DNA of 50,810 nt from a virus. A program made the position numbers and the translations under genes. Shown piece after piece: positions 1-50,810 of this stretch (positions within the stretch are counted from its first letter, which is position 1; the number at the start of each line of letters is the position of its first letter). The DNA is taken from positions 1 to 50,810 of the IMG/VR virus record IMGVR_UViG_3300045988_054624; one strand, 5' to 3'. Under the pieces are notes generated by a model. It worked only from the letters and a program-made list of their open reading frames with translations. It was not told where the DNA came from and did no database searches.

Positions 1-60
1 TGTTTCTTTTATCAATTTATTTTTACCTCGTCAAATATTTTTTTTCAATTTTTTTTCACG
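1..60 (-). promoter_or_regulatory. Conserved early promoter cassette (copy identical to 47112-47168 and to the window end 50771-50810); drives gene 50444..50722 across the genome junction
   Basis: Minus strand reads ...AAAATATTTGACGAGGTAAAAATAAATTGATAAAAGAAACACG; -35-like TTGACG, 17-nt spacer, TAAAAG. A 58-nt exact repeat of the copy at 47111-47168. Confidence 0.5.
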
Positions 61-8256: not shown

Positions 8257-9582
8257 TTAGGCTGTTTTCATCGAAAGTCTTTGAATTTCAAATTCTTCAA
8301 ATAGTGCATCGGTGTAATCACGCCGCATTTTCAGCGTTTCAAAGACCTGTTCTTCTACAGAATCCCGGCAAATAAGCGTGTAATAGAAACAGGCATTTTT
8401 CTGACCAATTCGGTGCGTCCGTTTTTTGCTCTGTTCAAAATACTCGCTGGACAAGGGTAGTGTGAAGTAAACAATCTTGTTCGCCTTTTGGAGATTCAAC
8501 CCCATTGATCCAGATTGATATTGACAGAAAGTAATGGAATCTTCCTTGGTCTCGTATGCCGTCAAGTCTTTGACTGAACCGTTCACTTCACTTTGCGGAC
8601 GGCCTTTAGCTATTTCCTTGAGCTTTTCAAGTTCTTCCTTGAAGTTGTAGAAAACTATCAACCTGTCTTCCGTTGAGGCTATGAGGTCGCCAAACGCTTC
8701 CAGCTTCGCCTTGTTGAACTGACCGCATAGCATACGTTCATAGAGCAGTCTAGTTAGGCTCATATCTCCTACTAGCGTTTTCCCTTCAACTTCTACAATC
8801 CTTTCTTTTTTGAACCGTCTATACGCCGGTGTAGAATCCACGTCGATTTTTACGAACGTTTGTTCTGGTAATGATAGCACATCTTCAGTTTTAAGAAAAT
8901 ATGCGCCATTTTTTCGTAACATCATTTTCAGTTCATCAACATTTTGATATCCCACGACGATTTTAATCGGGAATCTCGAATTTTTTATTTTGAGTTCGTG
9001 TTCAATTATGTAGCGATTGTAAAACTCACGCTTGGATATGTTCCATCCTAACAATTTGCATTGGCTCCAAAGACGCTCGTATTTTCCCGCAGTTGGTGTG
9101 CCAGATAGAAGAATCACGTTCTTTTCATTCAATCGGTTCAAGATGAACCTAGAACGCTTTGAGTTCTCATTCTGGATAAGTGACGATTCATCCAACAGTA
9201 AAGTAATTCTTTCCAGTTGCCTTAATTCGGGCCGTCTCCAAACCAAATCATAATTGATGACGATAACACCGTGAGCCGGTTTTGCGTTCGGCTTTGTGTA
9301 ATCAATCACATTCAATTCCGGATAGTATTGTTTGAAATGAGCGATCCAGTCATTGACTTTTGACTTCTGGCATATCACTAGATTGTATTCTTCACCTAGC
9401 CGAACCAGTTTTTCAGAACCAATGAAGGTCTTACCCAAACCCATATCATACCAGTAAGCAACTCGGTTTTGAGAATCACTTTTCGATAATACTTCTATTT
9501 GATGCGGATAAAGATTCACTTTGAGAACACCTCCTTCCAGAACGATTGTTTCATAGTTAGAACGGATTGATGATGAACTCAA
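8257..9582 (-). CDS. SNF2-family helicase (early region)
   Basis: GLGKTF Walker A; DESS box (LLLDESSLIQN); SGTP; C-terminal helicase motif MGLNLQKANKIVYF...RTHRIGQ. Confidence 0.75.
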   Translation of the reverse strand: MSSSSIRSNYETIVLEGGVLKVNLYPHQIEVLSKSDSQNRVAYWYDMGLGKTFIGSEKLVRLGEEYNLVICQKSKVNDWIAHFKQYYPELNVIDYTKPNAKPAHGVIVINYDLVWRRPELRQLERITLLLDESSLIQNENSKRSRFILNRLNEKNVILLSGTPTAGKYERLWSQCKLLGWNISKREFYNRYIIEHELKIKNSRFPIKIVVGYQNVDELKMMLRKNGAYFLKTEDVLSLPEQTFVKIDVDSTPAYRRFKKERIVEVEGKTLVGDMSLTRLLYERMLCGQFNKAKLEAFGDLIASTEDRLIVFYNFKEELEKLKEIAKGRPQSEVNGSVKDLTAYETKEDSITFCQYQSGSMGLNLQKANKIVYFTLPLSSEYFEQSKKRTHRIGQKNACFYYTLICRDSVEEQVFETLKMRRDYTDALFEEFEIQRLSMKTA

Positions 9583-9931
9583 GTAATCTACGCCAGAAGC
9601 CTTTCTTCTTTGGTGTTACGGGCGTTTCAGACATCGTAAACCTGTTAATAGAATCCCGTTCTGCCAAGTCTCGCATGAGGTTTAATTCCTCACCGCTTCT
9701 TACACAATCTGAACTCATATGAACCCTTTTCATGTCAGTATCTTTCAGCACTCTCTTATAGCAAGCATCAACGGCTTGTTTGCTGTAAGTTCTCTTGCGG
9801 CTTACATATCTTCCCGGACCTACCCGGTAATATGTCTTGCCGTCAACATAGATTGTTTCACGCTCTCTACCTGCCTCGGATTCCTGAATGAACGTTGACG
9901 CGATAATTATCAACAATAATGTCGCTTTCAT
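9557..9931 (-). CDS. Secreted small protein carrying a 22-aa motif shared with the TMP C-terminus
   Basis: Signal peptide MKATLLLIIIASTFIQESEA; EELNLMRDLAERDSINRFTMS matches the TMP segment EELNLMRDLAERDAINRYTMS (20 of 21 residues). Confidence 0.5.
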   Translation of the reverse strand: MKATLLLIIIASTFIQESEAGRERETIYVDGKTYYRVGPGRYVSRKRTYSKQAVDACYKRVLKDTDMKRVHMSSDCVRSGEELNLMRDLAERDSINRFTMSETPVTPKKKGFWRRLLEFIINPF

Positions 9932-10113
9932 TTTTTGTCTTTTAGATAGTTGTGAAACTTTTCGGAGTTGATGTAGTACGTGAATCTATCTGACATTTTC
10001 ACAGCACATCCGAACTCCAATATTCCCCGTTGCAATCCTATGCGAATAAATTGCTGGCTTACGCGCATTTGTTTAGCTGCTTCAGCAACGGACATTCTTT
10101 TCACATCAAACAC
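9928..10113 (-). CDS. HTH_17/excisionase-like DNA-binding protein
   Basis: MSVAEAAKQMRVSQQFIRIGLQRG, a helix-turn-helix typical of Xis/MerR-like small proteins. Confidence 0.45.
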   Translation of the reverse strand: MFDVKRMSVAEAAKQMRVSQQFIRIGLQRGILEFGCAVKMSDRFTYYINSEKFHNYLKDKK

Positions 10114-10318
10114 CTACCTCGTCAAAAAATATCTGTTTGATTTCATCGGAGTTCAACCTGTATCTCTTTGCGATACCGTCAATCTCACTTTGTTTGAACT
10201 CTGTCTTTCCTATCATTTTATTGCTCATGGTTTGCTTGGTGATCCCTAGAGCAATGGCTAGTTCGCCTTGATTGTCTCCGTTAAGTGCCATTTTTGATTT
10301 CAGCAATGCGATATTCAT
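10106..10318 (-). CDS. Cro-like XRE-family HTH regulator
   Basis: LAIALGITKQTMSNKM HTH; divergent from the repressor; SD AAAGGAGGT; operators in the intergenic region. Confidence 0.6.
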   Translation of the reverse strand: MNIALLKSKMALNGDNQGELAIALGITKQTMSNKMIGKTEFKQSEIDGIAKRYRLNSDEIKQIFFDEVGV

Positions 10319-10347
10319 CAATACCTCCTTTTGAATTGGTTACTATT

Positions 10348-10467
10348 AAGATACTTTTACCGGGTAAGTATCTAAAAAATATGTTATCAGCCTCTTTCGC
10401 AATAATCAAGACTAAATTACGTATTTTTTAGATACTTTCTAACTTTTTATGATATAATCAAGATACT
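10348..10467. promoter_or_regulatory. Lysogeny switch: four AAGATACTT operator half-sites/palindromes and divergent promoters
   Basis: AAGATACTT at 10348 and its reverse complement at 10365 form a palindrome; further copies at 10430 and 10460; extended -10 TGATATAAT at 10450-10458 reading toward the repressor. Confidence 0.55.
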
Positions 10468-10478
10468 ATGGAAGGTAG

Positions 10479-10874
10479 GTGATTTATTTGAGCGTTGGAG
10501 CAACTATAAAAAAGTTGCGTTTAGAGAAAGGACTGACGCAAGAGGAACTCGGAGAGTTGCTAGGAGTAAAGAAAGCCGCCATCCAGAAATATGAAAGCGG
10601 CCATGTACAAAATTTGAAACAAAGCACGATAAGAAGGCTTTGCGAGATATTCGACAAAACGCCTTCATACTTTGTCTATGATGATTATGAATCATCCTTA
10701 GAACACATGTTACGGTCTCAAGTAGGGATGATAGAATTGTTTCAAAGGGCTTACGGTAAAGACTTTATAGAACTGGTAGAAATATACCTAGAATTGAGTG
10801 ACCGGAATAAGGCGAAGGTTTTAGAGTACGCCAATGACATTTCACTGTTACAATCTGTTACGGGCAAAAAGTAA
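10479..10874 (+). CDS. cI-like XRE-family repressor
   Basis: N-terminal HTH LTQEELGELLGVKKAAIQKYESG plus a C-terminal oligomerisation region; 131 aa. Confidence 0.7.
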   Translation: MIYLSVGATIKKLRLEKGLTQEELGELLGVKKAAIQKYESGHVQNLKQSTIRRLCEIFDKTPSYFVYDDYESSLEHMLRSQVGMIELFQRAYGKDFIELVEIYLELSDRNKAKVLEYANDISLLQSVTGKK

Positions 10875-10898: not shown

Positions 10899-11104
10899 GT
10901 GTCACAGATGTAACAGATGTTTCCTATATATTTATTATTTTTCTCAATATGAAATAAGATGGGAATAGTTTTTTTTCACTTTTCATGTGAAAATGTAGGG
11001 GAATTGGAAGTGTTACATCTGTTACACTGTTACATCAGGCATGTAAATCTTTGAAAATCAAATGTTTTAAGGTGTCACAGATGAAGAAAGGGAAGTGTTA
11101 CACA
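10899..11104. repeat. Array of TGT(A/C)ACAGATG motifs (region A) between repressor and integrase
   Basis: gtgtcacagatgtaacagatg (10899-10919), gtgttacatctgttacactgttacatc (11010-11036), ggtgtcacagatg (11071-11083), gtgttacac (11096-11104); the same motif family as at 38995-39398. Confidence 0.6.
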
Positions 11105-12126
11105 TGCGCAACACAAACGGTTATGGAAGCGTTATCAAATTGAGCGGCAAACGCCGCCGCCCGTATGCCGTAAGAATTACCTCCGGATGGACTGATGACG
11201 GAAAACAGAAGTATAAATACATCAGTTACCATCAGAAAAAATCGGAAGCTTTGCTAGCATTGGCTGAGTTCAACCGTAACCCACACGATATTGATGCAGC
11301 GCGTATCACATTTGCGGAAGTCTATGACCGCTGGAGTGAAAAAGAGTTCCGTACCTTGTCAGACAGTTCAGCAAAAACGTATAGGAGTGCATATAAACAT
11401 TGTGCGCCTCTGTACGGGAAGGTATTCAAGGAACTTCGCACTCAACATCTACAATCGGTCATTACGTCCATCGAAGCACCATCCATGAAAGAAACAACTA
11501 AGTTCCTTTTTCAGAAGTCTTACCGCTTCGCACTTGAAAATGATATTGTACAGAAAGATTATTCGCAATTCGTGAAACTTCCTAAGAAACCACCAGCTAA
11601 GAAAAAGGTTCCGTTCACCCCGGAAGAAATCAATTACTTGTGGGAAAACAAGGACGCGATAAAATATGCGGATTTCACACTTATCTTGTTGTACACGGGC
11701 ATGCGGATTGGCGAGTTGCTAGCTATCAACAAATCAGACGTTAATCTTGAGAAACGGTATATGGTAGGTGGGTCTAAAACTGACGCCGGTAAAGAACGGA
11801 TTATCCCACTTCACAAGCGTATCGTGCCATTGCTGGAAAAACGGATGAATGAGGCGGAAAATGAGTGGTTGTTTCCAAACAAGCGAGGGTTGCGTTTGCA
11901 ATATTCACCGTTCATGAAATACCACTGGCCTAATCTGATGCAGGACATCAAAGGAGATCACACGCCCCATGATACCCGGCACACGTTCGTTTCCAACATG
12001 GATAGGTTAGGAGTTCGGAAGTTGAATATTCAAAGGATTGTTGGTCACAAAGACGCAGACGTAACGGAACATTACACGCACAAATTGATTGAGGAATTGA
12101 TTGCGGATGTAGATAGATTAGATTGA
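11104..12126 (+). CDS. int: Tyrosine integrase with N-terminal arm-DNA-binding domain
   Basis: C-terminal catalytic residues RHTFVS...HKD...HYTH; N-terminal AP2-like arm-binding domain (RRRPYAVRITSGW...). The track start at 11095 is GTG; the ATG at 11104 has an SD. Confidence 0.8.
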   Translation: MRNTNGYGSVIKLSGKRRRPYAVRITSGWTDDGKQKYKYISYHQKKSEALLALAEFNRNPHDIDAARITFAEVYDRWSEKEFRTLSDSSAKTYRSAYKHCAPLYGKVFKELRTQHLQSVITSIEAPSMKETTKFLFQKSYRFALENDIVQKDYSQFVKLPKKPPAKKKVPFTPEEINYLWENKDAIKYADFTLILLYTGMRIGELLAINKSDVNLEKRYMVGGSKTDAGKERIIPLHKRIVPLLEKRMNEAENEWLFPNKRGLRLQYSPFMKYHWPNLMQDIKGDHTPHDTRHTFVSNMDRLGVRKLNIQRIVGHKDADVTEHYTHKLIEELIADVDRLD

Positions 12127-12719: not shown

Positions 12720-13265
12720 TCATAGTGCTTTGCAGATTCCTTTCACCAGCGCATTGACTAACGGTGCAAGTTCGTTTTCCTTGGTGTCAGGGTCATCCAT
12801 CAGTTTTTTGATGTCAACTTTGGATGAAATGAACCCTAATTCAATGAGCACCCACGGCCATTTTGTTTTGTTGAGCACGGCTAAATCCGTTCTGCGTACC
12901 GTCTCGCAAGCACGCCCCGGCATGTAGTCCGTCAGATAGTCAGCAATAGCCGTTGCAATCTGCTTCCCCTTCGTGCTGGTGTAGCACACATGGCCGCCGT
13001 GTGCGCCCGTATTAGAGCTTGAATCCATGTGCAAGGATACGCCGAATGTTACCCCTGACAACGCATTCGCTGCTGCGATAGTTCGGTTCAAATCGTCCTT
13101 GTTGCTCAAATACGGATAATCAATAACAGTTACTTTGTGACCGTTTCTTTTCAACGCAGGAGCTAAGAGATTGGCAACTTTTGAGGCAAGATCATGTTCT
13201 TCCTGCCCGTTGCCTCTAGCCCCTGTTCCCTTCGCGTGTCCGATGTCTAAAATAATATGTGCCAT
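12720..13265 (-). CDS. N-acetylmuramoyl-L-alanine amidase endolysin (amidase_3)
   Basis: MAHIILDIGHAKGTGARG...; amidase_3 family (CwlC/LytC-like); last gene of the late operon. Confidence 0.75.
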   Translation of the reverse strand: MAHIILDIGHAKGTGARGNGQEEHDLASKVANLLAPALKRNGHKVTVIDYPYLSNKDDLNRTIAAANALSGVTFGVSLHMDSSSNTGAHGGHVCYTSTKGKQIATAIADYLTDYMPGRACETVRRTDLAVLNKTKWPWVLIELGFISSKVDIKKLMDDPDTKENELAPLVNALVKGICKAL

Positions 13266-13281
13266 GATGTCAGTTCTCCTT

Positions 13282-13761
13282 TTATTTGTATTTAATAGGA
13301 TTGCCCCCTAAGCCATACAAATCCACAAGGATATTTTGAGGGAGCACCTTATCCAATAAATCAATAATCATTGTTGAATTGTGGTCAGGTATTTTTAATA
13401 TCAATTTGCAATACTCGTTTATGTAACTCATTTCAAAATTACCTTCTCCAAGCAATGAAGCAAGTAATTCTTTCAACACTCGCCACGTATAAGGACGGTG
13501 AAGCATCAAATACGTAAGGATTCTGGTTTTGCGCGTCTCTAACGTGTCTCCTTCATCCGGCACAATGCTTAGCATTGATTCCCAGCGTTCCACTCCGTAT
13601 TCTGTAGCATCTTCAATGAAACCTTCCCCTAGCACCCGTATGATGCAGTCAAACAATGATTTGAATTCCGGGTTCTCGGCTATGGCGATTTGATGAAACT
13701 CGGCGGCATTCCGCACGACAGCGGGCCAATACGTTTCAATGTTTATTTCTCTAGTTTCCAT
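13282..13761 (-). CDS. XkdU-like tail/baseplate protein (DUF2313-like)
   Basis: 159 aa; sits directly after the baseplate-J homolog, as in PBSX xkdT-xkdU. Confidence 0.4.
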   Translation of the reverse strand: METREINIETYWPAVVRNAAEFHQIAIAENPEFKSLFDCIIRVLGEGFIEDATEYGVERWESMLSIVPDEGDTLETRKTRILTYLMLHRPYTWRVLKELLASLLGEGNFEMSYINEYCKLILKIPDHNSTMIIDLLDKVLPQNILVDLYGLGGNPIKYK

Positions 13762-14824
13762 TGATAGTTCCCCTTGTGACGATTGAATCTTTATCCACCA
13801 TCAAGTTTTCCGCTTTTCCGTTGATCGTGGTGCCGGTAATGTCTATGATTCCATCAATGTTCAAGATTCTGCTTTCGAGTTGAGCAATTCTAACAGTTAT
13901 CCGATTAAGGTTCTGCCATGATTCATTGAGGCTAGCAAAATATGAATCTATTTCTGATTCAATTTTGGATTTCAAAGCGGCATAGGAATATCCAGCGTCA
14001 AACGTCAAAGTTGTGACAATATCTACCGTTGTATCGTAAGCCGCTACCACTGTGACAAAATGTCCTATTGGTGCGATACCTACCCCTTCACCCATGTTTG
14101 ATTCCGGGTCAAGAGTGGTCTGTATTTGCTCAATCAATGTTTCAGTTGGCACGCCAAAATCACTATCCAGCACGACAACTTTTACCGTTCCACCCCCGTT
14201 CCATTCAGAACCGGAATAAACCTTTACCGCTCCAACGCCGGAGATAGAAAGGACTTTGTTTTTGTAGTCTATCTTGTTACCACCGAAAGCATCTGATTTT
14301 AACGATGCAAAATACCTAGCTCTAAGCGATTCCGTTTCTTCCTCGTCTTCTCCTAATATCGTAACTTCGACGATTTCAGCCGTTTGAAGTCCGTTGACAA
14401 AATCAATCGGTATAAGTTGTCCAGTTACTCCATTCGGTTCCCTGCCAAGGGTTTCACATTGCAGATAATACAATCCGTCTTGAACTTTTTCCGTAATAGC
14501 GTAGTTAAAGTCTTCATGTGAAAAGCGGGTGCCAATCGGTATTTCGAGCGTTGAAGGCGTGAATTGGCCGAGTACAACGGCATAACTCGCAGGCTTAGGC
14601 GTGATGCCACGTTCCGCACATCGTTTAATGAGGTATTCACGGCTAGCAGTATCAGCAAACGTCTCACTTAACACAATGTCAAGGTTGATGTAAAAGTTCT
14701 GTAGTTCTACCGATGCCGGAGCCGTAGCATCGAAAATAATTGAACCTTCCCGTTTATCGAACTTAGCGGGAACACGTTCAAGCATTCTCCGCAATATCAA
14801 TTCCTGTGTATTTTCTTCAAACAT
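13751..14824 (-). CDS. Baseplate J-like protein (XkdT-like)
   Basis: 357 aa; position and size match the P2 gpJ / PBSX XkdT family. Confidence 0.6.
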   Translation of the reverse strand: MFEENTQELILRRMLERVPAKFDKREGSIIFDATAPASVELQNFYINLDIVLSETFADTASREYLIKRCAERGITPKPASYAVVLGQFTPSTLEIPIGTRFSHEDFNYAITEKVQDGLYYLQCETLGREPNGVTGQLIPIDFVNGLQTAEIVEVTILGEDEEETESLRARYFASLKSDAFGGNKIDYKNKVLSISGVGAVKVYSGSEWNGGGTVKVVVLDSDFGVPTETLIEQIQTTLDPESNMGEGVGIAPIGHFVTVVAAYDTTVDIVTTLTFDAGYSYAALKSKIESEIDSYFASLNESWQNLNRITVRIAQLESRILNIDGIIDITGTTINGKAENLMVDKDSIVTRGTINGN

Positions 14825-15718: not shown

Positions 15719-16676
15719 AGAATTCTTCCTTCCCTTGAAGCGTTAAATCCATGTAGTGGTCATCGTTATCAAATACGTGCTTGGCTTTTTCAACTAGCAT
15801 CCGCTGCTTGGTTACTATCATGTCTCCTAGGTTCAAATCCAAGTAAATCCCGCAGCCTGCCCGCACTCGTATGTCACCTTTTTGACGCTTGATAGTTAAT
15901 GACCTTGATACCCGGTTGTAGAGATTCAACATAGCCGCCGCCATTGCTTTGATGTTAGACCCGCTGTTGACGCTTACAAAGTTCTGCAACACGCCCCATT
16001 GCTGGATTGTTTTTGTATCGTCTAACTTCGCTACATTCCGTATTTTTTGTTCTTCCGATTCAACTAATACAATGCGGTTGTATGTGTTTTTATCAATGGA
16101 CGTTGTGTAGTCAAAATCAGATGCTGTTGAAGCGTCAATCAATATATCAATCGTAGAATCTTTAATGTTTTTCAACATTAACTTGTCATAGTCTGAATAG
16201 AGATAATACAAGTTTCCTGTTGCCATAGCCGTTTCATCAATGGCATCCAGAATCATATCAAACAAGCTAACGTTTTCCTTGTAAAACTTAGGAATGATAT
16301 ATCCGGTGTTAGGCAGTTCCCCGGCTTTTAGTTTGAAGTCTTCCGCAATCCGGCTTACCACTTGATCCGCTCTCACCCCCGTCCAGACATAACTAATCTT
16401 GTTTTTCAGATAGCGCAACTGGTCATAAGCCGTCACCTTGATATGGTGGTCTTTGTTCCGTTGCTTCTCAAATACAAATCCGAAAAACACAGGCGTATCA
16501 TCATACCAGAACGTAACGCGAGCACCTTCGGAAAAACTCAATCCTTCCGTTTTAACTACGGTGAAGGTGAGTTTTCCCGGCTCGCCTTTTCGAGCGGTCT
16601 CCCATTCAATACCCTCTATTACCGCAGGCTCTTGAACCCGTCCACCGCTCCATATTTGAATAATACATTTTCCCAT
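15711..16676 (-). CDS. Baseplate hub-like protein (XkdQ / late-control-D-like)
   Basis: 321 aa; follows the LysM protein, as in PBSX xkdP-xkdQ. Confidence 0.4.
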   Translation of the reverse strand: MGKCIIQIWSGGRVQEPAVIEGIEWETARKGEPGKLTFTVVKTEGLSFSEGARVTFWYDDTPVFFGFVFEKQRNKDHHIKVTAYDQLRYLKNKISYVWTGVRADQVVSRIAEDFKLKAGELPNTGYIIPKFYKENVSLFDMILDAIDETAMATGNLYYLYSDYDKLMLKNIKDSTIDILIDASTASDFDYTTSIDKNTYNRIVLVESEEQKIRNVAKLDDTKTIQQWGVLQNFVSVNSGSNIKAMAAAMLNLYNRVSRSLTIKRQKGDIRVRAGCGIYLDLNLGDMIVTKQRMLVEKAKHVFDNDDHYMDLTLQGKEEFYD

Positions 16677-17353
16677 TATGACATCCTCAATTTTTGACCC
16701 ACGTAAATCTTGTCCGGACTTTCTAATCCATTCAGGTCTGCGATTTCTTTGTATTTTGAGCCATTACCCAATTGCTTTTTGCAAATGTTCCACAAGGTAT
16801 CGCCCTTATTCACAATGTAGAATTTGACTGATTGCTTTGATGCCGTATTTCTTTCTTTCGTAACCATAGCCACCGCCGCTGTAGCAGCTATTCCCGCGAG
16901 ACTAGATAAACTGATAGATTTTGTTCCGTAGTCTTTGTATTCCTTCAACGTGATTCTGCACAACACGTCAAAGCCGTGTGCCTCGGCATCTTCATCGTAT
17001 TCAAAATCTTCAATTTGAGACTTAATATTGGTATAGAATAAAATCTTACCTTTCGGATTCATTCTGGTTACGATGAATTGAAAAGGAATCTTTGTTTTTT
17101 TCCATTCATTCAAGACCGGAATGAAGGTGCTAGCGGTGTAATTCGAGATTGAATAATTGGAAAACGGATATTTTTGTTGAGGCAACAAAAAATCAAATGA
17201 TATTTCCCGCAAGCCTTGTTCCTTCAATATGTTAATCTCACCGTCATTGATTAACGTTACTGTTGTATTTTTAGAAGGTGTTTTAATATTCAACGCACCC
17301 GGAGTAACCGGAAGCGGAACAGGCGGTATTCCCATGAAAAAATAATATGCCAT
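16676..17353 (-). CDS. LysM-domain tail protein (XkdP / gpX-like)
   Basis: C-terminal LysM: YIVNKGDTLWNICKKQLGNGSKYKEIADLNGLESPDKIYVGQKL. Confidence 0.65.
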   Translation of the reverse strand: MAYYFFMGIPPVPLPVTPGALNIKTPSKNTTVTLINDGEINILKEQGLREISFDFLLPQQKYPFSNYSISNYTASTFIPVLNEWKKTKIPFQFIVTRMNPKGKILFYTNIKSQIEDFEYDEDAEAHGFDVLCRITLKEYKDYGTKSISLSSLAGIAATAAVAMVTKERNTASKQSVKFYIVNKGDTLWNICKKQLGNGSKYKEIADLNGLESPDKIYVGQKLRMS

Positions 17354-17366
17354 GTGTTATTCCTCC

Positions 17367-19724
17367 TTAAATATGTACACCTTCGGCAGTTGATACAACG
17401 CCCTCATAAACCTTCCGCTGAAGGTACTCGGAAATCTTGTCTAAATCCATGCTGGAAGAAACATTGTTGTTGTTCGTCATGTTGATTTTGAGATTGGACA
17501 TTGTGTACCGGTTAATCGCATCACGTTCGGCTAAGTCACGCATCAAGTTCAATTCTTCGTCACTTCTACCGGATAGACTATCGGTATCATCAGCAATGCT
17601 GCCAATGTCTTTGGCAATACCGTCTAACGCAGGATTTTTGCCCAACCCTCCGCGCAATGCCTTTTCAATGTCATTTGGACCCCCGGCACCGTTAGTAACG
17701 TTTCCGTACTTGTCAACGTTATCCTTTCCGTACTTGTCTTGCAGTTTCTTTAATTCATCCGTGCCGGTTAAATCTTTGAACTTCTTACCGGAAAATAAAT
17801 TGGAGAGTTGCTGTTCTTTTTCGGCTCCATAGTTGTAACCCTTCTCCCAATTTGAGCGAATGTCTTTATATTCCATCTTTGGAGCATTCCAGTAATCTTT
17901 TGGCTCCTCACCCAACATATCTTGCAACTTCCCTTTTGCGTTCTCAAAATCGGAAGTGATTGATGTTCTGTGTTCAAACCTCGTTGCTTTACCCAAGCCT
18001 AATTTTTCGCCAACAACCCCTAGTTTATCAACAAGCCAATTCCACCCTTCCAAAACCCCGTTAATTGCGTCAAGCATAGCGTTGACAAAATTGGTTGCCA
18101 TTTCGTCCCAACCTTTTGTCATTGAGATGCAAAGGTCTAACAGGTTTGTAGCCAAATTAACGAATAATTTTTTAATTGAATAAACCGGATTTTTGAAAAC
18201 ATTGACTAGAAATTCAACAAACGCAGAGAAATAATTCCACAAATAAGCGATTATATTGTAAATGGTTGCATACAGGACCATGAACGCACCGGCGATAACG
18301 CCCGTTGCACTGACGGACGTTCCGGCAAAATGATTCACCGCCGCAACTACGAGATACACAACTACAATCAAAGCGATTATCAGTAAGATTATCCACACAA
18401 GCGGACATGAATATAACGCTGTATTCAATCCCCATTGTGCGCCAGTTGCCGCTATTGTAGCCGTAGTTTCCGCCCAAGTCGCCATGCCTAGAAGAAACTT
18501 AGCTACCGCTAACAAGCTAGTGATTGCGAACATGGCCCATTTGGCCGCAACGCACGCCCATTCTGCAATTTTAACTAAAAGCAAAATAGTATGATACGCA
18601 GCATAAGCCGCTACGATTCCCCAAACAACCGGACCAATGAAACTCCAATTATCAATGATGAAGTTGTAAATATCGGCTAATTGGTCGTAAATGCCCGCTA
18701 GAACCGGAGCGAGCACGCTAAATACATTTTTGATAGTGCTCGCAACCCTAGAGATAGCATCTCCTACTCCGCTAGCGAACTTGATGAATCGTTCGTTGCT
18801 GGTTAGTTTACCTATCCCCTCAAGGATTGGTTGAAGTGCTTTAATGGTGTAATTCTTAATCGTAGTCCAGACTTGCCCCCATGTGTACGGCATGGATTCA
18901 AATTTTTTGTTGACATCATCCGCAGCGGAGAACAAGGCATTCTTCACGATTCCTGCGGATATTTTGCCGTCAGCAGCTAGTTCCCTCAACTTACCGATTG
19001 GCACGTTCATGTAATCCGCTACGGCTTGCATGACGTTAGGTGCCGCTTCAAACACAGCATTGAATTCTTCCCCTCGCAGAACGCCGGAACCTAACGCTTG
19101 CGTAAGCTGTAGCGTAGCGGAGGCCATTTCCTGTTCACTGGCACCCGCAATGACAAACATCTTGTTAAGCGTTTCCGCGAAAGCAATCGTTTCGTCATTG
19201 CTCTTGAACATGTTTCCGGCACGGGCCGCCAACTTAGCCACCGCATCAGCCGTTCCCGTCAGAGAACCACGTGAACGCATGGCAGCTTGATAGATTTTAT
19301 CGTTCAATTCGGCGGTAGTTTGCAGCCCGTCGTTAATCATGTTCAAGCGGGCAGTGGTAGTGCTCATCGTGTCAGAAAGACCAATGATGCCTTTGACGGA
19401 TTGAAAACCTAGATAGGTTGCCGCAATTCCTTTCAGCTTGCCCCAAAGCGCATGTGCCGAACCCGTACCATTCCGCACGCTGTTGTTGAATTGATTTTGT
19501 GCGGTGGTGTTTTGGCGTATTTCATTCTCAATGTTGTTGAATTGAGTTTGTGCTTTCGCAAGTTCCGTTCTGGCAGTTTGAATGCTCTTTGTGTCAACGG
19601 CTTTTCCTGAAACACGCTGCATTGCTTCAAATGAGTTCAGGACGATATTCATAGCCCTGTTCATTGATTGCAAAGCCGGGGTCATACCATCCGTTATTCT
19701 AATACTTGTTTGAATTGTCGCCAT
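17367..19724 (-). CDS. Tape measure protein
   Basis: 785 aa; coiled-coil N-terminus; central multi-TM hydrophobic block; sits immediately after the G/GT chaperone. Confidence 0.8.
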   Translation of the reverse strand: MATIQTSIRITDGMTPALQSMNRAMNIVLNSFEAMQRVSGKAVDTKSIQTARTELAKAQTQFNNIENEIRQNTTAQNQFNNSVRNGTGSAHALWGKLKGIAATYLGFQSVKGIIGLSDTMSTTTARLNMINDGLQTTAELNDKIYQAAMRSRGSLTGTADAVAKLAARAGNMFKSNDETIAFAETLNKMFVIAGASEQEMASATLQLTQALGSGVLRGEEFNAVFEAAPNVMQAVADYMNVPIGKLRELAADGKISAGIVKNALFSAADDVNKKFESMPYTWGQVWTTIKNYTIKALQPILEGIGKLTSNERFIKFASGVGDAISRVASTIKNVFSVLAPVLAGIYDQLADIYNFIIDNWSFIGPVVWGIVAAYAAYHTILLLVKIAEWACVAAKWAMFAITSLLAVAKFLLGMATWAETTATIAATGAQWGLNTALYSCPLVWIILLIIALIVVVYLVVAAVNHFAGTSVSATGVIAGAFMVLYATIYNIIAYLWNYFSAFVEFLVNVFKNPVYSIKKLFVNLATNLLDLCISMTKGWDEMATNFVNAMLDAINGVLEGWNWLVDKLGVVGEKLGLGKATRFEHRTSITSDFENAKGKLQDMLGEEPKDYWNAPKMEYKDIRSNWEKGYNYGAEKEQQLSNLFSGKKFKDLTGTDELKKLQDKYGKDNVDKYGNVTNGAGGPNDIEKALRGGLGKNPALDGIAKDIGSIADDTDSLSGRSDEELNLMRDLAERDAINRYTMSNLKINMTNNNNVSSSMDLDKISEYLQRKVYEGVVSTAEGVHI

Positions 19725-19743: not shown

Positions 19744-20354
19744 TTATCGCTTCCGCTTTGTTTTAGCTTTCTTCGCTTCCTTCTTTTCGTTTTCCAATTT
19801 TATGTCTATTGAAGCCACGATGAAAGCTTTTTCATATTTATCCATCCCGTCAAATTGACGAGGTGTGATTCTTAATTTGTGAAGGCAATAGTAAGCATAG
19901 TTTGCTAGACTATCGCCTTCGATGATTAGTTTTTTGCTTCTTCGACCATATCATTCATGTCTGTATCGAATCCGTTTACTTCGGAGACTTTGGCGCAAAG
20001 GTCCGCATACTCACCGGGAGCGAGCATCTTTTTAATCAATGCGTCCGCACCCATTACACCGTAACTGTCTTGCAGTTCCTTATTGTTCAAGTCAGGGAAC
20101 ACAATGGTTGCAACGGTCAATTTGGTGATGTAGGATGTCGTGTCCATTTCGGAACGGAACTGATTAGCCTTGCCTACCACCTTAATTTGCCTCATGCAAG
20201 ACCTGCGAATAGATTCGTCCGTATCAGAATCAATCCGCTTGAGTTCCCATTCTAAAGGCTTGCCTTGTTTGTCAACAAAGTCCTTAGATGCTACATACTT
20301 AACATTTTCGTGCTTGATTTTGTTTTGAGCGAGAAACGCGCTAAAATCAGACAT
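19744..20354 (-). CDS. Tail assembly chaperone with programmed -1 frameshift extension (G/GT arrangement)
   Basis: Zero-frame ORF 19926..20354 ends ...GAA GAA GCA AAA AAC TAA. The slippery heptamer A_AAA_AAC (plus 19929-19935) opens a 64-codon -1 frame that fills the whole 200-nt gap and stops just before the TMP start. Confidence 0.55.
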
Positions 20355-47088: not shown

Positions 47089-47170
47089 GAGGGGCGTTTC
47101 CCCTCGTGACGTGTTTCTTTTATCAATTTATTTTTACCTCGTCAAATATTTTTTTTCAATTTTTTTCGCT
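47089..47170 (-). promoter_or_regulatory. Early promoter cassette with 5' GC hairpin (GAGGGG-cgttt-CCCCTC)
   Basis: 58 nt identical to 1-58; the leader AAACCTAAACAATAGAAAACAAAACAAC-ATG lacks an SD. Confidence 0.5.
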
Positions 47171-50740: not shown

Positions 50741-50810
50741 TGGTTGTGAGGTGCCTTTCCCCTCGTGACGTGTTTCTTTTATCAATTTATTTTTACCTCG
50801 TCAAATATTT
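50741..50810 (-). promoter_or_regulatory. Early promoter cassette copy spanning the genome junction (continues at 1-60)
   Basis: Hairpin GAGGTGCCTTTCCCCTC; 50771-50810 is identical to 1-40. Confidence 0.45.

What the first reader, a model, noticed from the sequence alone, without database searches (positions are those of the whole stretch)
9557..9931. Small secreted early protein shares a 22-residue motif with the C-terminus of the tape measure protein (17367-19724)
Seen in sequence: ORF 9557..9931 has a cleavable signal peptide (MKATLLLIIIASTFIQESEA) and contains EELNLMRDLAERDSINRFTMS. The TMP C-terminal region (encoded around 17500-17565) contains EELNLMRDLAERDAINRYTMS. The underlying nucleotides are only about 70% identical, so this is not a recent duplication: the peptide is conserved under selection.

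The gene sits in the immunity-proximal early region, next to the HTH/Cro genes.

Inference: it is a TMP C-terminus mimic, expressed from the lysogeny/early region and exported. That is the architecture expected for a superinfection-exclusion factor that competes with the incoming TMP for a host envelope partner during DNA injection (compare HK97 gp15-type Sie systems). It could also be an assembly factor that binds the same partner as the TMP C-terminus.
Basis: partly seen in the sequence, partly recalled or inferred. Interest (0 to 1): 0.72.

Follow-up and report, generated by a model that had tools for sequence, protein, structure and literature searches.

The report
Exported early protein with tape-measure segment
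A small, probably exported protein made early by a temperate (likely gut clostridial) phage carries a 24-residue stretch derived from the conserved end of the tail tape measure protein. Related lineages of this rare gene family keep, erode or lack that stretch, so a role as an injection-blocking decoy is plausible but unproven.

Summary
ORF 9557-9931 (minus strand, 124 aa) shares 21/28 residues (19/21 in the core) with TMP residues 720-747 (gene 17367-19724), at 76% nucleotide identity.

The segment is a conserved hallmark of XkdO-type TMP C-termini, not low-complexity coiled coil.

The ORF is a real gene under purifying selection. It is translationally coupled to the HTH gene in the cro-side early operon.

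It belongs to a very rare family: six 90%-identity clusters in 5.8 billion proteins. Members share an N-terminal export signal, a beta-meander and a C-terminal amphipathic helix (KKGFWRR...). The central part is variable.

TMP-likeness is strong in this lineage, moderate in a second (independent p about 1e-6) and weak in a third. It is absent in a sister phage whose TMP has the same motif.

Natural variants change TMP-invariant residues without any matching change in their TMPs.

Two chromosomal remnants retain the gene (one only this gene, the other also cro and HTH).

A TMP-helix decoy acting in superinfection exclusion is the best single reading (about 0.35). A recombination patch with no TMP-related role is nearly as likely. 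The gene is not in the prophage-expressed lysogeny module.

The parts
9557..9931 (-). Small early gene, 124 aa. Member of a rare family of small exported proteins.
   Evidence: ORF. dN/dS against the sister phage L001 is 0.08, with 12 synonymous and 4 nonsynonymous changes. Across six genomes there are 17 synonymous and 13 nonsynonymous changes. Family found.
9872..9931 (-). Codons 1-20: N-terminal export signal (MK, then 13 hydrophobic residues, then QESEA). Predicted cleavage after A20.
   Evidence: Hydropathy peak at residues 1-18. An N-terminal hydrophobic segment is conserved in all family members. The L004 homolog has a lipobox-like LAISC. AF2 predicts a helix at 3-17. Export itself is inferred.
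9800..9856 (-). Codons 26-44: conserved beta-meander TIYVDGKTYYRVGPGRYVS, a family signature.
   Evidence: D30, G31, Y34/35, G40 and Y42 are invariant in alignments A2 and A5. AF2 predicts strands at 26-29, 32-38 and 41-44, at low confidence.
9701..9790 (-). Codons 48-77: lineage-specific central insert with two Cys. It has no counterpart in other family members.
   Evidence: Alignment gap. blastn against L029 aligns only the 5' 47 codons and the 3' 16 codons of the gene.
9629..9700 (-). Codons 78-101: TMP-derived segment RSGEELNLMRDLAERDSINRFTMS.
   Evidence: Within a predicted helix 80-102.
9560..9607 (-). Codons 109-124: conserved C-terminal amphipathic helix KKGFWRRLLEFIINPF. The stop codon is at 9557-9559.
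   Evidence: KKGFWR and E118 are invariant across the family. Hydrophobic moment 1.09 with mean hydropathy near 0.
17367..19724 (-). Tail tape measure protein, 785 aa, XkdO type.
   Evidence: PF20155 and phrog_1068. It is flanked by the XkdN-like chaperone (19926-20354) and the LysM XkdP-like protein (16676-17353).
17496..17567 (-). TMP residues 720-743: RSDEELNLMRDLAERDAINRYTMS, the source-type motif. It lies 43-66 residues from the TMP C-terminus.
   Evidence: Conserved across TMPs. Invariant in five close relatives (L001, L032-L035), and with one substitution (M to L) in L029.
18240..18632 (-). TMP residues about 365-495: cluster of hydrophobic (transmembrane-like) segments.
   Evidence: Kyte-Doolittle scan. 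Comparable TM segments are reported for the diffocin, phiCD508 and T4 TMPs.
9928..10113 (-). 61-aa HTH gene (phrog_6058). Its stop overlaps the small gene's start (ATGA).
   Evidence: It is 78-84% identical in L004 and L006.
10106..10321 (-). Cro-like DUF739 gene, first gene of the early operon.
10322..10478 (.). Divergent cI/cro control region with four copies of AGTATCT (three direct, one inverted).
   Evidence: Read from the sequence. A plus-strand promoter-like site lies at 10429-10458.
10479..10874 (+). cI-like HTH repressor.
   Evidence: PF01381 at 2e-15.
11095..12126 (+). Tyrosine integrase.
   Evidence: PF00589 and phrog_1.
8257..9525 (-). SNF2-family helicase, the next gene in the operon. 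The likely start is GTG at 9525, after a GGAGG.
   Evidence: The gene is called as 422 aa in L001.

Best explanation
The gene encodes a small accessory protein of the phage's early lytic operon.

Shown:
- It is co-transcribed with, and translationally coupled to, the cro-like and HTH genes.
- It is under purifying selection.
- It has a conserved N-terminal hydrophobic leader, a conserved beta-meander and a conserved C-terminal amphipathic helix.
- Its central helix (residues 78-101) is a copy of a helix that is conserved in the C-terminal domain of XkdO-type tape measure proteins.

Inferred:
- After infection or induction the protein is exported by Sec. The leader is cleaved after A20, or lipid-anchored in the L004 homolog.
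- The basic 104-aa mature protein (pI 9.8) stays at the outer face of the membrane through its C-terminal helix.

Speculative:
- When another phage with the same tail type contracts on the cell, the C-terminal end of its TMP leaves the tail first. The displayed copy of the TMP helix then competes for that helix's partner. The partner could be other TMP protomers, a hub- or XkdP-derived protein, or a host envelope component.
- This would disturb channel formation and DNA entry.

This would be early-expressed superinfection exclusion, like T4 Imm or T5 Llp in timing, but working by partial mimicry of the TMP rather than by an unrelated binder. The variable central part of the family would set which tails are excluded.
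For: - The match is far beyond chance and specific to TMP C-termini.
- 19/21 residues are retained despite 15/63 nucleotide differences; p about 1e-5 under unconstrained change.
- The gene is selected: dN/dS 0.08 against L001 and about 0.25 over six genomes.
- A homolog only about 35% identical (L004) keeps a TMP-like segment at the same place. A TMP C-terminal profile hits it at 14.2 bits, p = 1.4e-6. It is closer to this TMP lineage (11-12/21) than to other TMPs (6-8/21) or to the window protein (9/21).
- The export signal is conserved in all members, with a lipobox-like form in L004.
- The slot between the HTH gene and the SNF2 gene is variable in relatives: a 39-aa TM protein, nothing, or this family with or without an HNH gene. 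This is typical of accessory or exclusion genes.
- Intact copies survive as remnants next to tRNA-Met in two unrelated bacterial chromosomes. In L006 the copy sits with cro, HTH and the promoter region but no repressor. In L007 it is alone.
- Precedents for envelope proteins that block entry by acting on the TMP: Ltp, T4 Imm, which is early-expressed and binds the TMP domain C-terminal to its TM segment, and SNIPE, which associates with TMPs.
- In the diffocin structure the TMP C-terminus sits on the spike at the baseplate (distal) end of the tail. That it is therefore the first part of the TMP to emerge on contraction is inferred.
Against: - Phage L029 has the same genome layout and a TMP motif differing at one residue (M to L), but its homolog (P0010) lacks the segment apart from RY.LA. 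TMP-likeness is therefore dispensable for the family's core function.
- Variants within this lineage carry L85F/R87S or R92G, at or next to residues strongly conserved in TMPs, with no change in their own TMP. Within the segment dN/dS is about 0.33, no lower than in the rest of the gene.
- The gene lies on the cro side, with no promoter of its own detected. It should be silent in a lysogen.
- The donor TMP is unknown. Synonymous divergence may pre-date the capture.
- Export is not demonstrated. The AF2 model is poor, pLDDT 54.
- There is no match to PADLOC, Pfam, NCBIfam or any PHROG other than the TMP profile.
- The partner of the TMP helix is unknown, and no solved structure covers it.
Confidence: 0.35

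Rival explanations
1. Recombination patch. The family is an exported or membrane-associated early accessory protein whose function resides in the conserved ends (beta-meander and C-terminal amphipathic helix). The central part is a tolerant helical spacer that is repeatedly rebuilt by illegitimate recombination. In an ancestor it picked up about 25 codons of a TMP gene, and the resemblance has no TMP-related role.
For: - The gene is a mosaic. Only the 5' 47 codons and the 3' 16 codons align with the L029 homolog. The centre is lineage-specific.
- TMP-likeness falls off across lineages: 19/21 in the window lineage, 11-12/21 in L004, then only a marginal profile match in L006 (p = 0.004) and essentially none in the L029 type.
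- L029 keeps the TMP motif in its TMP but not in its small protein.
- There is no co-variation with the TMP, and radical substitutions are tolerated in the segment.
Against: - Retention of 19/21 residues at near-saturated synonymous divergence is unexpected for a neutral spacer.
- A second lineage also keeps a significant TMP-like segment.
- Both points are explained only if the donor or donors were already diverged, or if the capture is recent. No such donor was found.
Confidence: 0.3
2. Superinfection sensor or lysis-timing modulator, analogous in logic to T4 RI. An exported early protein recognises components ejected by a superinfecting phage, for example by pairing with the incoming TMP helix, and signals to the lysis machinery rather than blocking entry.
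For: Early expression, an N-terminal export or anchor signal, small size, and a TMP-like helix that could pair with incoming TMP. The T4 RI analogy comes from general knowledge and was not tested here.
Against: The gene is not near the lysis genes (amidase at 12720-13265). There is no similarity to any antiholin family. The retention of solitary copies in bacterial chromosomes without any lysis cassette is hard to explain this way.
Confidence: 0.07
3. Cytoplasmic tail-assembly factor or competitor. The leader is not a functional signal peptide, and the protein binds the same baseplate partner as the TMP C-terminal domain during assembly.
For: The copied helix lies in the TMP region that docks in the baseplate hub and spike in related machines. 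Tail-assembly interference exists as a strategy (paper listed, not read here).
Against: A hydrophobic N-terminal leader with small residues at -3 and -1 is conserved in all members, and is lipobox-like in one. The gene sits in the early operon, far from the tail genes. Homologs survive where no tail genes remain. The protein would also poison the phage's own tails.
Confidence: 0.05
4. Degenerate remnant of a secreted GH24 (T4-type) lysozyme. Its N-terminal hairpin and following helices happen to resemble the TMP motif.
For: Two colinear weak matches to T4 lysozyme: residues 24-49 to T4L 14-39, and residues 51-100 to T4L 68-116. The best E is 0.001, to a Cys mutant. Most other listed T4 lysozyme entries (mainly engineered mutants) give E about 0.002-0.016.
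Against: The family profile does not hit lysozyme. Pfam Phage_lysozyme is not hit. By inspection, the catalytic Glu and Thr equivalents are absent. The T4L-like middle part is confined to this lineage. T4L is hugely over-represented in the PDB.
Confidence: 0.03
5. Not a functional gene: a chance ORF or a decaying fragment.
For: Very rare family with no annotated homologs. There is no strong Shine-Dalgarno sequence before the ATG.
Against: The ORF is intact in 14 sequence variants on about 25 contigs. There is a synonymous excess. The export signal and termini are conserved across members that are 35-42% identical. The ATGA coupling to the upstream gene is also conserved in L006.
Confidence: 0.02

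Closest known systems
Ltp of Streptococcus thermophilus phage TP-J34 (superinfection-exclusion lipoprotein)
   Same: A small protein of a temperate Gram-positive phage, exported by a signal peptide. [quoted passage not shown] 2013).
   Different: Ltp is a lipoprotein with tandem helix-turn-helix-like repeat domains that bind the TMP by charge. It does not resemble the TMP. It is prophage-expressed; from general knowledge, not checked here, its gene lies in the lysogeny module. The window protein has no lipobox, no such domains and no sequence similarity, and sits in the cro-side operon.
T4 Imm
   Same: From general knowledge (not checked here), it is expressed early in lytic infection. It is membrane-located and blocks genome entry of secondary phages by direct interaction with the TMP domain that follows the TMP's transmembrane segment.
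   Different: Imm is a polytopic membrane protein unrelated to the TMP in sequence. Here the protein has a single leader plus an amphipathic tail and carries a copy of a TMP helix. No binding has been shown.
HK97 gp15
   Same: A phage-encoded small envelope protein that blocks DNA entry in a process involving the TMP and a host inner-membrane protein (references listed; details from general knowledge).
   Different: gp15 is a moron in the tail-gene region, expressed from the prophage, and is a membrane protein without TMP similarity. None of its defining features was met here.
T5 Llp (early lipoprotein blocking the receptor FhuA)
   Same: An early-expressed, exported small protein that prevents superinfection during the lytic cycle (paper listed; details from general knowledge).
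   Different: Llp acts on the receptor, not on the injection machinery, and has no similarity to a structural protein.
Sequence motifs shared between mycobacteriophage TMPs and secreted host proteins (Rpf-like motifs)
   Same: A short segment is shared between a TMP and a small secreted protein (general knowledge, not checked here).
   Different: There the TMP carries an enzyme-like motif of host origin at internal positions. Here the shared segment is an ancestral, family-wide part of the TMP C-terminal domain, and the small protein is the recipient.
Cryptic-prophage survivors that protect the host, such as DicB
   Same: A small phage gene retained in otherwise decayed prophage remnants (DicB paper seen).
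   Different: DicB is cytoplasmic and acts on inner-membrane receptor proteins. A protective role for the present remnants is only inferred from their retention.

Membership tests
Tape measure protein (PF20155 / phrog_1068) | Full-length match to the TMP profile, with long helical protein and TMP_3 domain | tested here: not met
   Only residues 72-102 match positions 635-665 of the 706-position profile, E = 8e-5. There is no TMP_3 hit. It carries a fragment of a TMP and is not a TMP.
Sec-type exported protein (signal peptide) | Positively charged n-region, hydrophobic h-region of 10-15 residues, c-region with small residues at -3 and -1 | tested here: met
   MK / ATLLLIIIASTFI / QESEA, with S at -3 and A at -1. 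Hydropathy peak over residues 1-18. Conserved in all homologs. This was judged by inspection only. No SignalP-type predictor was available and there is no experiment.
Bacterial lipoprotein | Lipobox [LVI][ASTVI][GAS]C at the end of the leader | tested here: not met
   There is no Cys near the cleavage site in the window protein. The L004 homolog has LAISC, which fits the PROSITE-type pattern. L006 has PLNC, which does not.
Ltp-type superinfection exclusion proteins | Lipoprotein with tandem HTH-like repeat domains | tested here: not met
   No Pfam, PHROG or NCBIfam hit other than the TMP profile. The predicted topology is a beta-meander plus three helices.
Ltp-type / HK97 gp15-type superinfection exclusion proteins | Expressed from the prophage, either in the lysogeny module or as a moron with its own promoter | tested here: not met
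   It is the third gene of the cro-side operon, with an ATGA overlap with the HTH gene and no minus-strand promoter-like site upstream. Expression itself is not testable here.
Any superinfection exclusion protein | Blocks DNA entry of a superinfecting phage without blocking adsorption | not testable with these tools
   This needs plating, adsorption and DNA-entry assays.
Known anti-phage defence proteins (PADLOC-DB) | Match to a defence-system model | tested here: not met
   There were 0 hits for four family members at E <= 1.
GH24 (T4-type) lysozyme | Catalytic Glu-(8 residues)-Asp-(5 residues)-Thr triad and a match to the family profile | tested here: not met
   There are only weak pairwise hits to T4L, with E between 1e-3 and 1e-2. 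Asp is present, but the Glu and Thr positions are G21 and R36 by inspection of the alignment. The family profile gives no lysozyme hit, and there is no Pfam hit.
The small-protein family itself (window, P0001, P0008/P0026, P0009, P0005, P0010, P0011) | Leader, DGKTYY-type beta-meander and C-terminal KKGFWR.. amphipathic helix, located just downstream of the conserved 61-aa HTH gene in phage copies | tested here: met
   Alignments A2, A5 and A6. HMM scores of 143-146 bits for all members. Synteny in the window, L001, L004 and L006, and in L029 by nucleotide alignment.

The most novel reading that the evidence does not exclude
Superinfection exclusion by molecular mimicry of the tape measure protein. 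An early-expressed, exported mini-protein displays a copy of a conserved TMP C-terminal helix at the membrane surface. It acts as a dominant-negative decoy that prevents incoming tails of the same type from forming the DNA-entry channel. The family's hypervariable centre would be the specificity determinant. Bacteria would retain solitary copies from decayed prophages as standing protection.
Probability: 0.25. Interest if true: 0.75.

Novelty: new variant of a known kind. Interest (0 to 1): 0.48.

Why it matters
How tailed phages of Gram-positive bacteria get DNA across the membrane, and what the conserved C-terminal domain of the TMP does after it leaves the tail, are poorly understood. No solved structure covers this segment.

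A natural, exported, 24-residue copy of that domain would be a ready-made probe. If it blocks entry, it identifies the segment as a functional interaction site. It would also add mimicry of a virion protein to the known ways of excluding superinfection.

Natural variants provide a built-in specificity test. They range from a strong motif, through point variants, to a homolog with no motif in a phage with the same TMP.

If the segment turns out to be functionally irrelevant, the locus is still a clean example of a structural-gene fragment being recruited into an accessory gene.

Tried and rejected
- **Close relatives of the ORF.** None were found in INPHARED phages (tblastn and megablast), IMG/VR, or GTDB genomes. 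This held with the single protein and with family alignments. The family was reachable only through the large protein collections.
- **Loci found through the conserved HTH neighbour.** These 18 loci held no further family member. They only showed that the slot is variable.
- **A more recent TMP donor.** blastn reported an 85% local hit of the motif to L029's TMP. Codon-aligned comparison showed 76% to both TMPs, while the two TMPs are 85% identical to each other. No closer donor was identified. Degenerate-pattern scans of IMG/VR found none either.
- **Co-variation between the small-protein motif and its own TMP.** Tested in six genomes; none found.
- **Lipoprotein fusions to a TMP C-terminal domain (P0003, P0012).** At first these looked like independent support. 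The two contigs share the same junction at 99.4% identity, joined to unrelated 5' ends. I treated them as probable assembly chimeras and did not count them.
- **T4-lysozyme similarity.** Not supported by the family profile.
- **AF2 model.** pLDDT was 54, too poor for fold search. The second structure job was not used.
- **tRNA-Met as the attachment site of the window phage.** No shared core was found.
- **cro and SNF2 rows in the table.** These were mis-registered and are not used.
Full report
**1. The observation**

The ORF is at 9557..9931 on the minus strand, 124 aa, beginning MKATLLLIIIASTFIQESEA. The tape measure protein (TMP) gene is at 17367..19724, also on the minus strand, 785 aa. It matches PF20155 TMP_3 and matches phrog_1068 end to end.

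BLASTP of the two proteins gives 21/28 identities without gaps, E = 8e-12. Residues 78-105 of the small protein align with residues 720-747 of the TMP. The 21-residue core (window 9629-9691 and 17496-17558) is 19/21 identical in protein and 48/63 (76%) identical in DNA. In the 19 core codons with identical amino acids, all nucleotide differences are necessarily synonymous in the minus-strand frame. In a simulation of 15 random substitutions in this 63-nt stretch, 2 or fewer amino-acid changes arose once in 123,332 trials.

The segment is not a generic coiled coil:
- It matches positions 635-665 of the 706-position TMP profile phrog_1068.
- It is conserved in the C-terminal domain of TMPs of C. 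difficile myophages (CDMH1, phiC2) and of several metagenomic phages. The consensus is E-[ED]-L-x-Y-[LM]-R-D-[IL]-A-E-[RQ]-[DE]-x-I-N-R-[FY]-T.
- An exhaustive phmmer of the ORF against 1.84 billion proteins returned no unrelated carrier.

**2. Context**

The last 40 nt of the window repeat its first 40 nt. The same phage appears as contigs of 49-51 kb in several samples with different start points. The window is therefore a complete circular assembly of about 50.77 kb.

It is a temperate myophage with a PBSX/XkdN-XkdO-XkdP-type tail module.

The integrase (11095-12126) and the cI-like repressor (10479-10874) are on the plus strand. Diverging from them on the minus strand are:
- a DUF739 cro-like gene (10106-10321);
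- a 61-aa HTH gene (9928-10113);
- the small ORF;
- an SNF2 helicase, whose likely start is GTG at 9525;
- replication genes.

The HTH stop and the small-ORF start overlap as ATGA. No minus-strand promoter-like site precedes the ORF. The gene therefore belongs to the cro-side early lytic operon, not to the prophage-expressed lysogeny module. That this operon is repressed in a lysogen is an inference from the lambdoid paradigm.

**3. It is a real gene in a very rare family**

In 5.8 billion clustered proteins the ORF alone finds only its own cluster. That cluster contains 14 sequence variants on about 25 contigs.

Exhaustive phmmer and a family-profile search add five more clusters.

| Member | Locus | Context |
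|---|---|---|
| P0008/P0026 | L004/L005 | phage early region |
| P0009 | L006 | chromosomal remnant |
| P0005 | L007 | chromosomal remnant |
| P0010 | L029 | intact sister phage |
| P0011 | L030 | chromosome; downstream flank unknown |

All members share:
- an N-terminal hydrophobic leader;
- a DGKTYYR-type beta-meander;
- a C-terminal KKGFWRR..E(I/F).. amphipathic helix.

The centre is variable.

Selection was measured in two ways:
- Against the sister phage L001 the gene shows 12 synonymous and 4 nonsynonymous differences, dN/dS 0.08.
- Over six genomes there are 17 synonymous and 13 nonsynonymous changes, dN/dS roughly 0.25. The TMP shows 50 and 6.

There is no match in Pfam, NCBIfam, PADLOC or any PHROG other than the TMP profile. 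The AF2 model is poor (pLDDT 54). It suggests a leader helix, three strands (26-44), helices at 51-64 and 80-102 (the TMP-like segment), and a helix at 112-121.

**4. Where the TMP-like segment stands in the family**

A profile of TMP C-termini was scored against family members.

| Protein | Score | p |
|---|---|---|
| Window | 32.7 bits | 2.7e-12 |
| L004 | 14.2 bits | 1.4e-6, at the equivalent position |
| L006 | 3.7 bits | 0.004 (marginal) |
| L007 | -0.7 bits | not significant |

The L004 segment (GEFSVMRDLKEREAVDRYTLA) is closer to the window and L029 TMPs (11-12/21) than to other TMPs (6-8/21) or to the window small protein (9/21). This fits an origin from this TMP lineage, with each small-protein lineage diverging on its own.

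Phage L029 has the same genome layout. Its TMP carries SDEELNLMRDLAERDAINRYTLS. Its small protein P0010 keeps only RY.LA..TP at that place.

At the DNA level the window gene is a mosaic. Only its first 47 codons and last 16 codons align with the L029 homolog, and the centre does not. The motif DNA is equally distant (76%) from the window TMP and the L029 TMP. Those two TMPs are 85% identical to each other there. Scans of IMG/VR found no closer donor.

**5. Test of co-evolution**

In six genomes of this phage the TMP motif is invariant. The small protein carries L85F plus R87S in L032 and L033, and R92G in L034 and L035. Within the segment there are 4 synonymous and 4 nonsynonymous changes, so it is no more constrained than the rest of the gene.

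The small protein therefore does not track its own TMP, and it tolerates changes at TMP-conserved positions. Long-term retention (19/21) and short-term tolerance can be reconciled if these are slightly deleterious polymorphisms. They also fit the view that an exact TMP match is not required.

**6. Other circumstantial evidence**

The slot between the HTH gene and the SNF2 gene is variable in related phages:
- a 39-aa membrane peptide in L008 and L016;
- nothing in L018;
- this family plus an HNH gene in L004.

Intact copies also sit in bacterial chromosomes.
- **L006** (GC 57%): a tRNA-Met is followed by about 95 nt of the early promoter/operator region, then cro, HTH and the small gene. No repressor or integrase is present, and bacterial genes lie on both sides.
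- **L007** (GC 48%): only the gene and about 40 nt upstream remain. They lie next to a tRNA-Met and a transposase fragment.
- **L030**: the upstream flank is bacterial, and the contig ends just after the gene.

Retention of this gene in remnants suggests a benefit to the host, but only two cases are clear.

The mature protein would be basic (pI 9.8). Its last 16 residues are strongly amphipathic.

**7. What is known about the TMP end**

In the diffocin structure the last 23 residues of the TMP form helices that intertwine with the N-terminal helices of the spike. The TMP also carries predicted TM helices. The phiCD508 paper describes a similar interaction between the TMP and the needle tip.

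The motif studied here lies 43-66 residues from the C-terminus. It is just upstream of that anchoring helix and downstream of the TMP's hydrophobic cluster at residues about 365-495. No solved structure matches this region by sequence.

Known envelope proteins act on TMPs during entry:
- T4 Imm binds the TMP domain C-terminal to its TM segment; from general knowledge it is an early protein.
- SNIPE associates with TMPs.

None of them resembles a TMP.

**8. Interpretation**

My best single explanation (confidence about 0.35) is an early-expressed, exported, membrane-surface accessory protein. Its central helix, derived from the TMP, would interfere with the TMP of incoming phages of the same tail type. 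This would be exclusion by partial mimicry.

- Shown: gene reality, operon position, family architecture, TMP origin of the segment, and its long-term retention in at least two lineages.
- Inferred: export, timing and location.
- Speculative: competition for the helix's partner.

The main rival (about 0.30) is that the segment is a recombination patch in a tolerant spacer, and that the family's function lies in its conserved ends. The L029 case, the graded erosion of the motif and the lack of co-variation favour this rival.

Minor rivals are an RI-like superinfection sensor, a cytoplasmic assembly competitor, a degenerate lysozyme remnant and a non-gene.

**9. Comparison and novelty**

The protein fails the defining features of Ltp (lipoprotein, HTH-like repeats, lysogeny module) and of HK97 gp15 (prophage-expressed moron). 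It is not a TMP, a lysozyme or a PADLOC family member.

In timing and site it most resembles T4 Imm and T5 Llp. It differs from all of them in carrying a copy of a virion-protein segment.

I rate it a new variant of a known kind: a phage accessory, possibly exclusion, protein. The interest is moderate.

Noticed in passing
L002 1112-1473 and L031 823-1184: The same phage TMP 3' end, followed by an XkdP-like gene in L031, is 99.4% identical over 362 nt. In two different samples it is joined in frame, at exactly the same nucleotide, to two unrelated lipoprotein 5' ends. One is a Bacteroidetes-style signal peptide beside a SusC-like gene (P0003). The other is a CbiK-like lipoprotein N-terminus (P0012). 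These are probably assembly chimeras, but the identical junction is odd.
   Followed up: partly
window 9557-9931 (residues 24-49 and 51-100): There are two colinear weak matches to T4 lysozyme (T4L residues 14-39 and 68-116). The best E is 0.001; most other listed T4 lysozyme entries give E about 0.002-0.016. The family profile and Pfam do not support the match.
   Followed up: partly
window 10322-10478: The cI/cro intergenic region holds three direct copies and one inverted copy of AGTATCT (AGTATCTAAA / TTTAGATACT). These are likely operator half-sites. A TTGATT-17-TAACAT promoter-like element faces cro (sequence).
   Followed up: no
window 1-40 and 50771-50810; 47097-47166 and 50756-50810 plus 1-55: The 40-nt terminal overlap shows that the window is a circular assembly of about 50,770 bp. 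Separately, a 70-nt exact direct repeat occurs about 3.66 kb apart in intergenic DNA. It contains a GC hairpin (GAGGGG..CCCCTC) and T-rich tracts.
   Followed up: partly
L008 680-799, L016 324-443, L018 10180-10198: In related phages the slot between the HTH gene and the SNF2 helicase is variable. L008 and L016 have a 39-aa hydrophobic peptide (MSKEEYIKILGEM..). L018 has nothing there.
   Followed up: partly
L006 9075-10327; L007 9536-10306: Both chromosomal remnants carrying the small gene lie just downstream of a tRNA-Met gene, in bacteria of different GC content (57% and 48%). The window phage's int-proximal region shares no core with these tRNAs.
   Followed up: partly
window 12720-14824 versus L029 5574-7356: Between the baseplate genes (Baseplate_J at 13751-14824 and the Gp48-like gene at 13282-13761) and the amidase (12720-13265) there is no long tail-fibre or receptor-binding ORF. 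L029 has a longer Gp48-like gene and an extra 196-aa ORF there.
   Followed up: no
L001 10001-10453 and relatives (P0001, P0015, P0016 and others): Gene callers often extend the small gene to 150 aa, from an ATG inside the HTH gene in another frame. The extension is absent in the window and in several variants, so MKATLL is the real start.
   Followed up: yes
L003 385-771: A 128-aa ORF equal to a TMP C-terminus lies directly upstream of an XkdP-like gene, with unrelated sequence before it. The contig has 1.2x coverage, so this is a broken or chimeric TMP gene.
   Followed up: no
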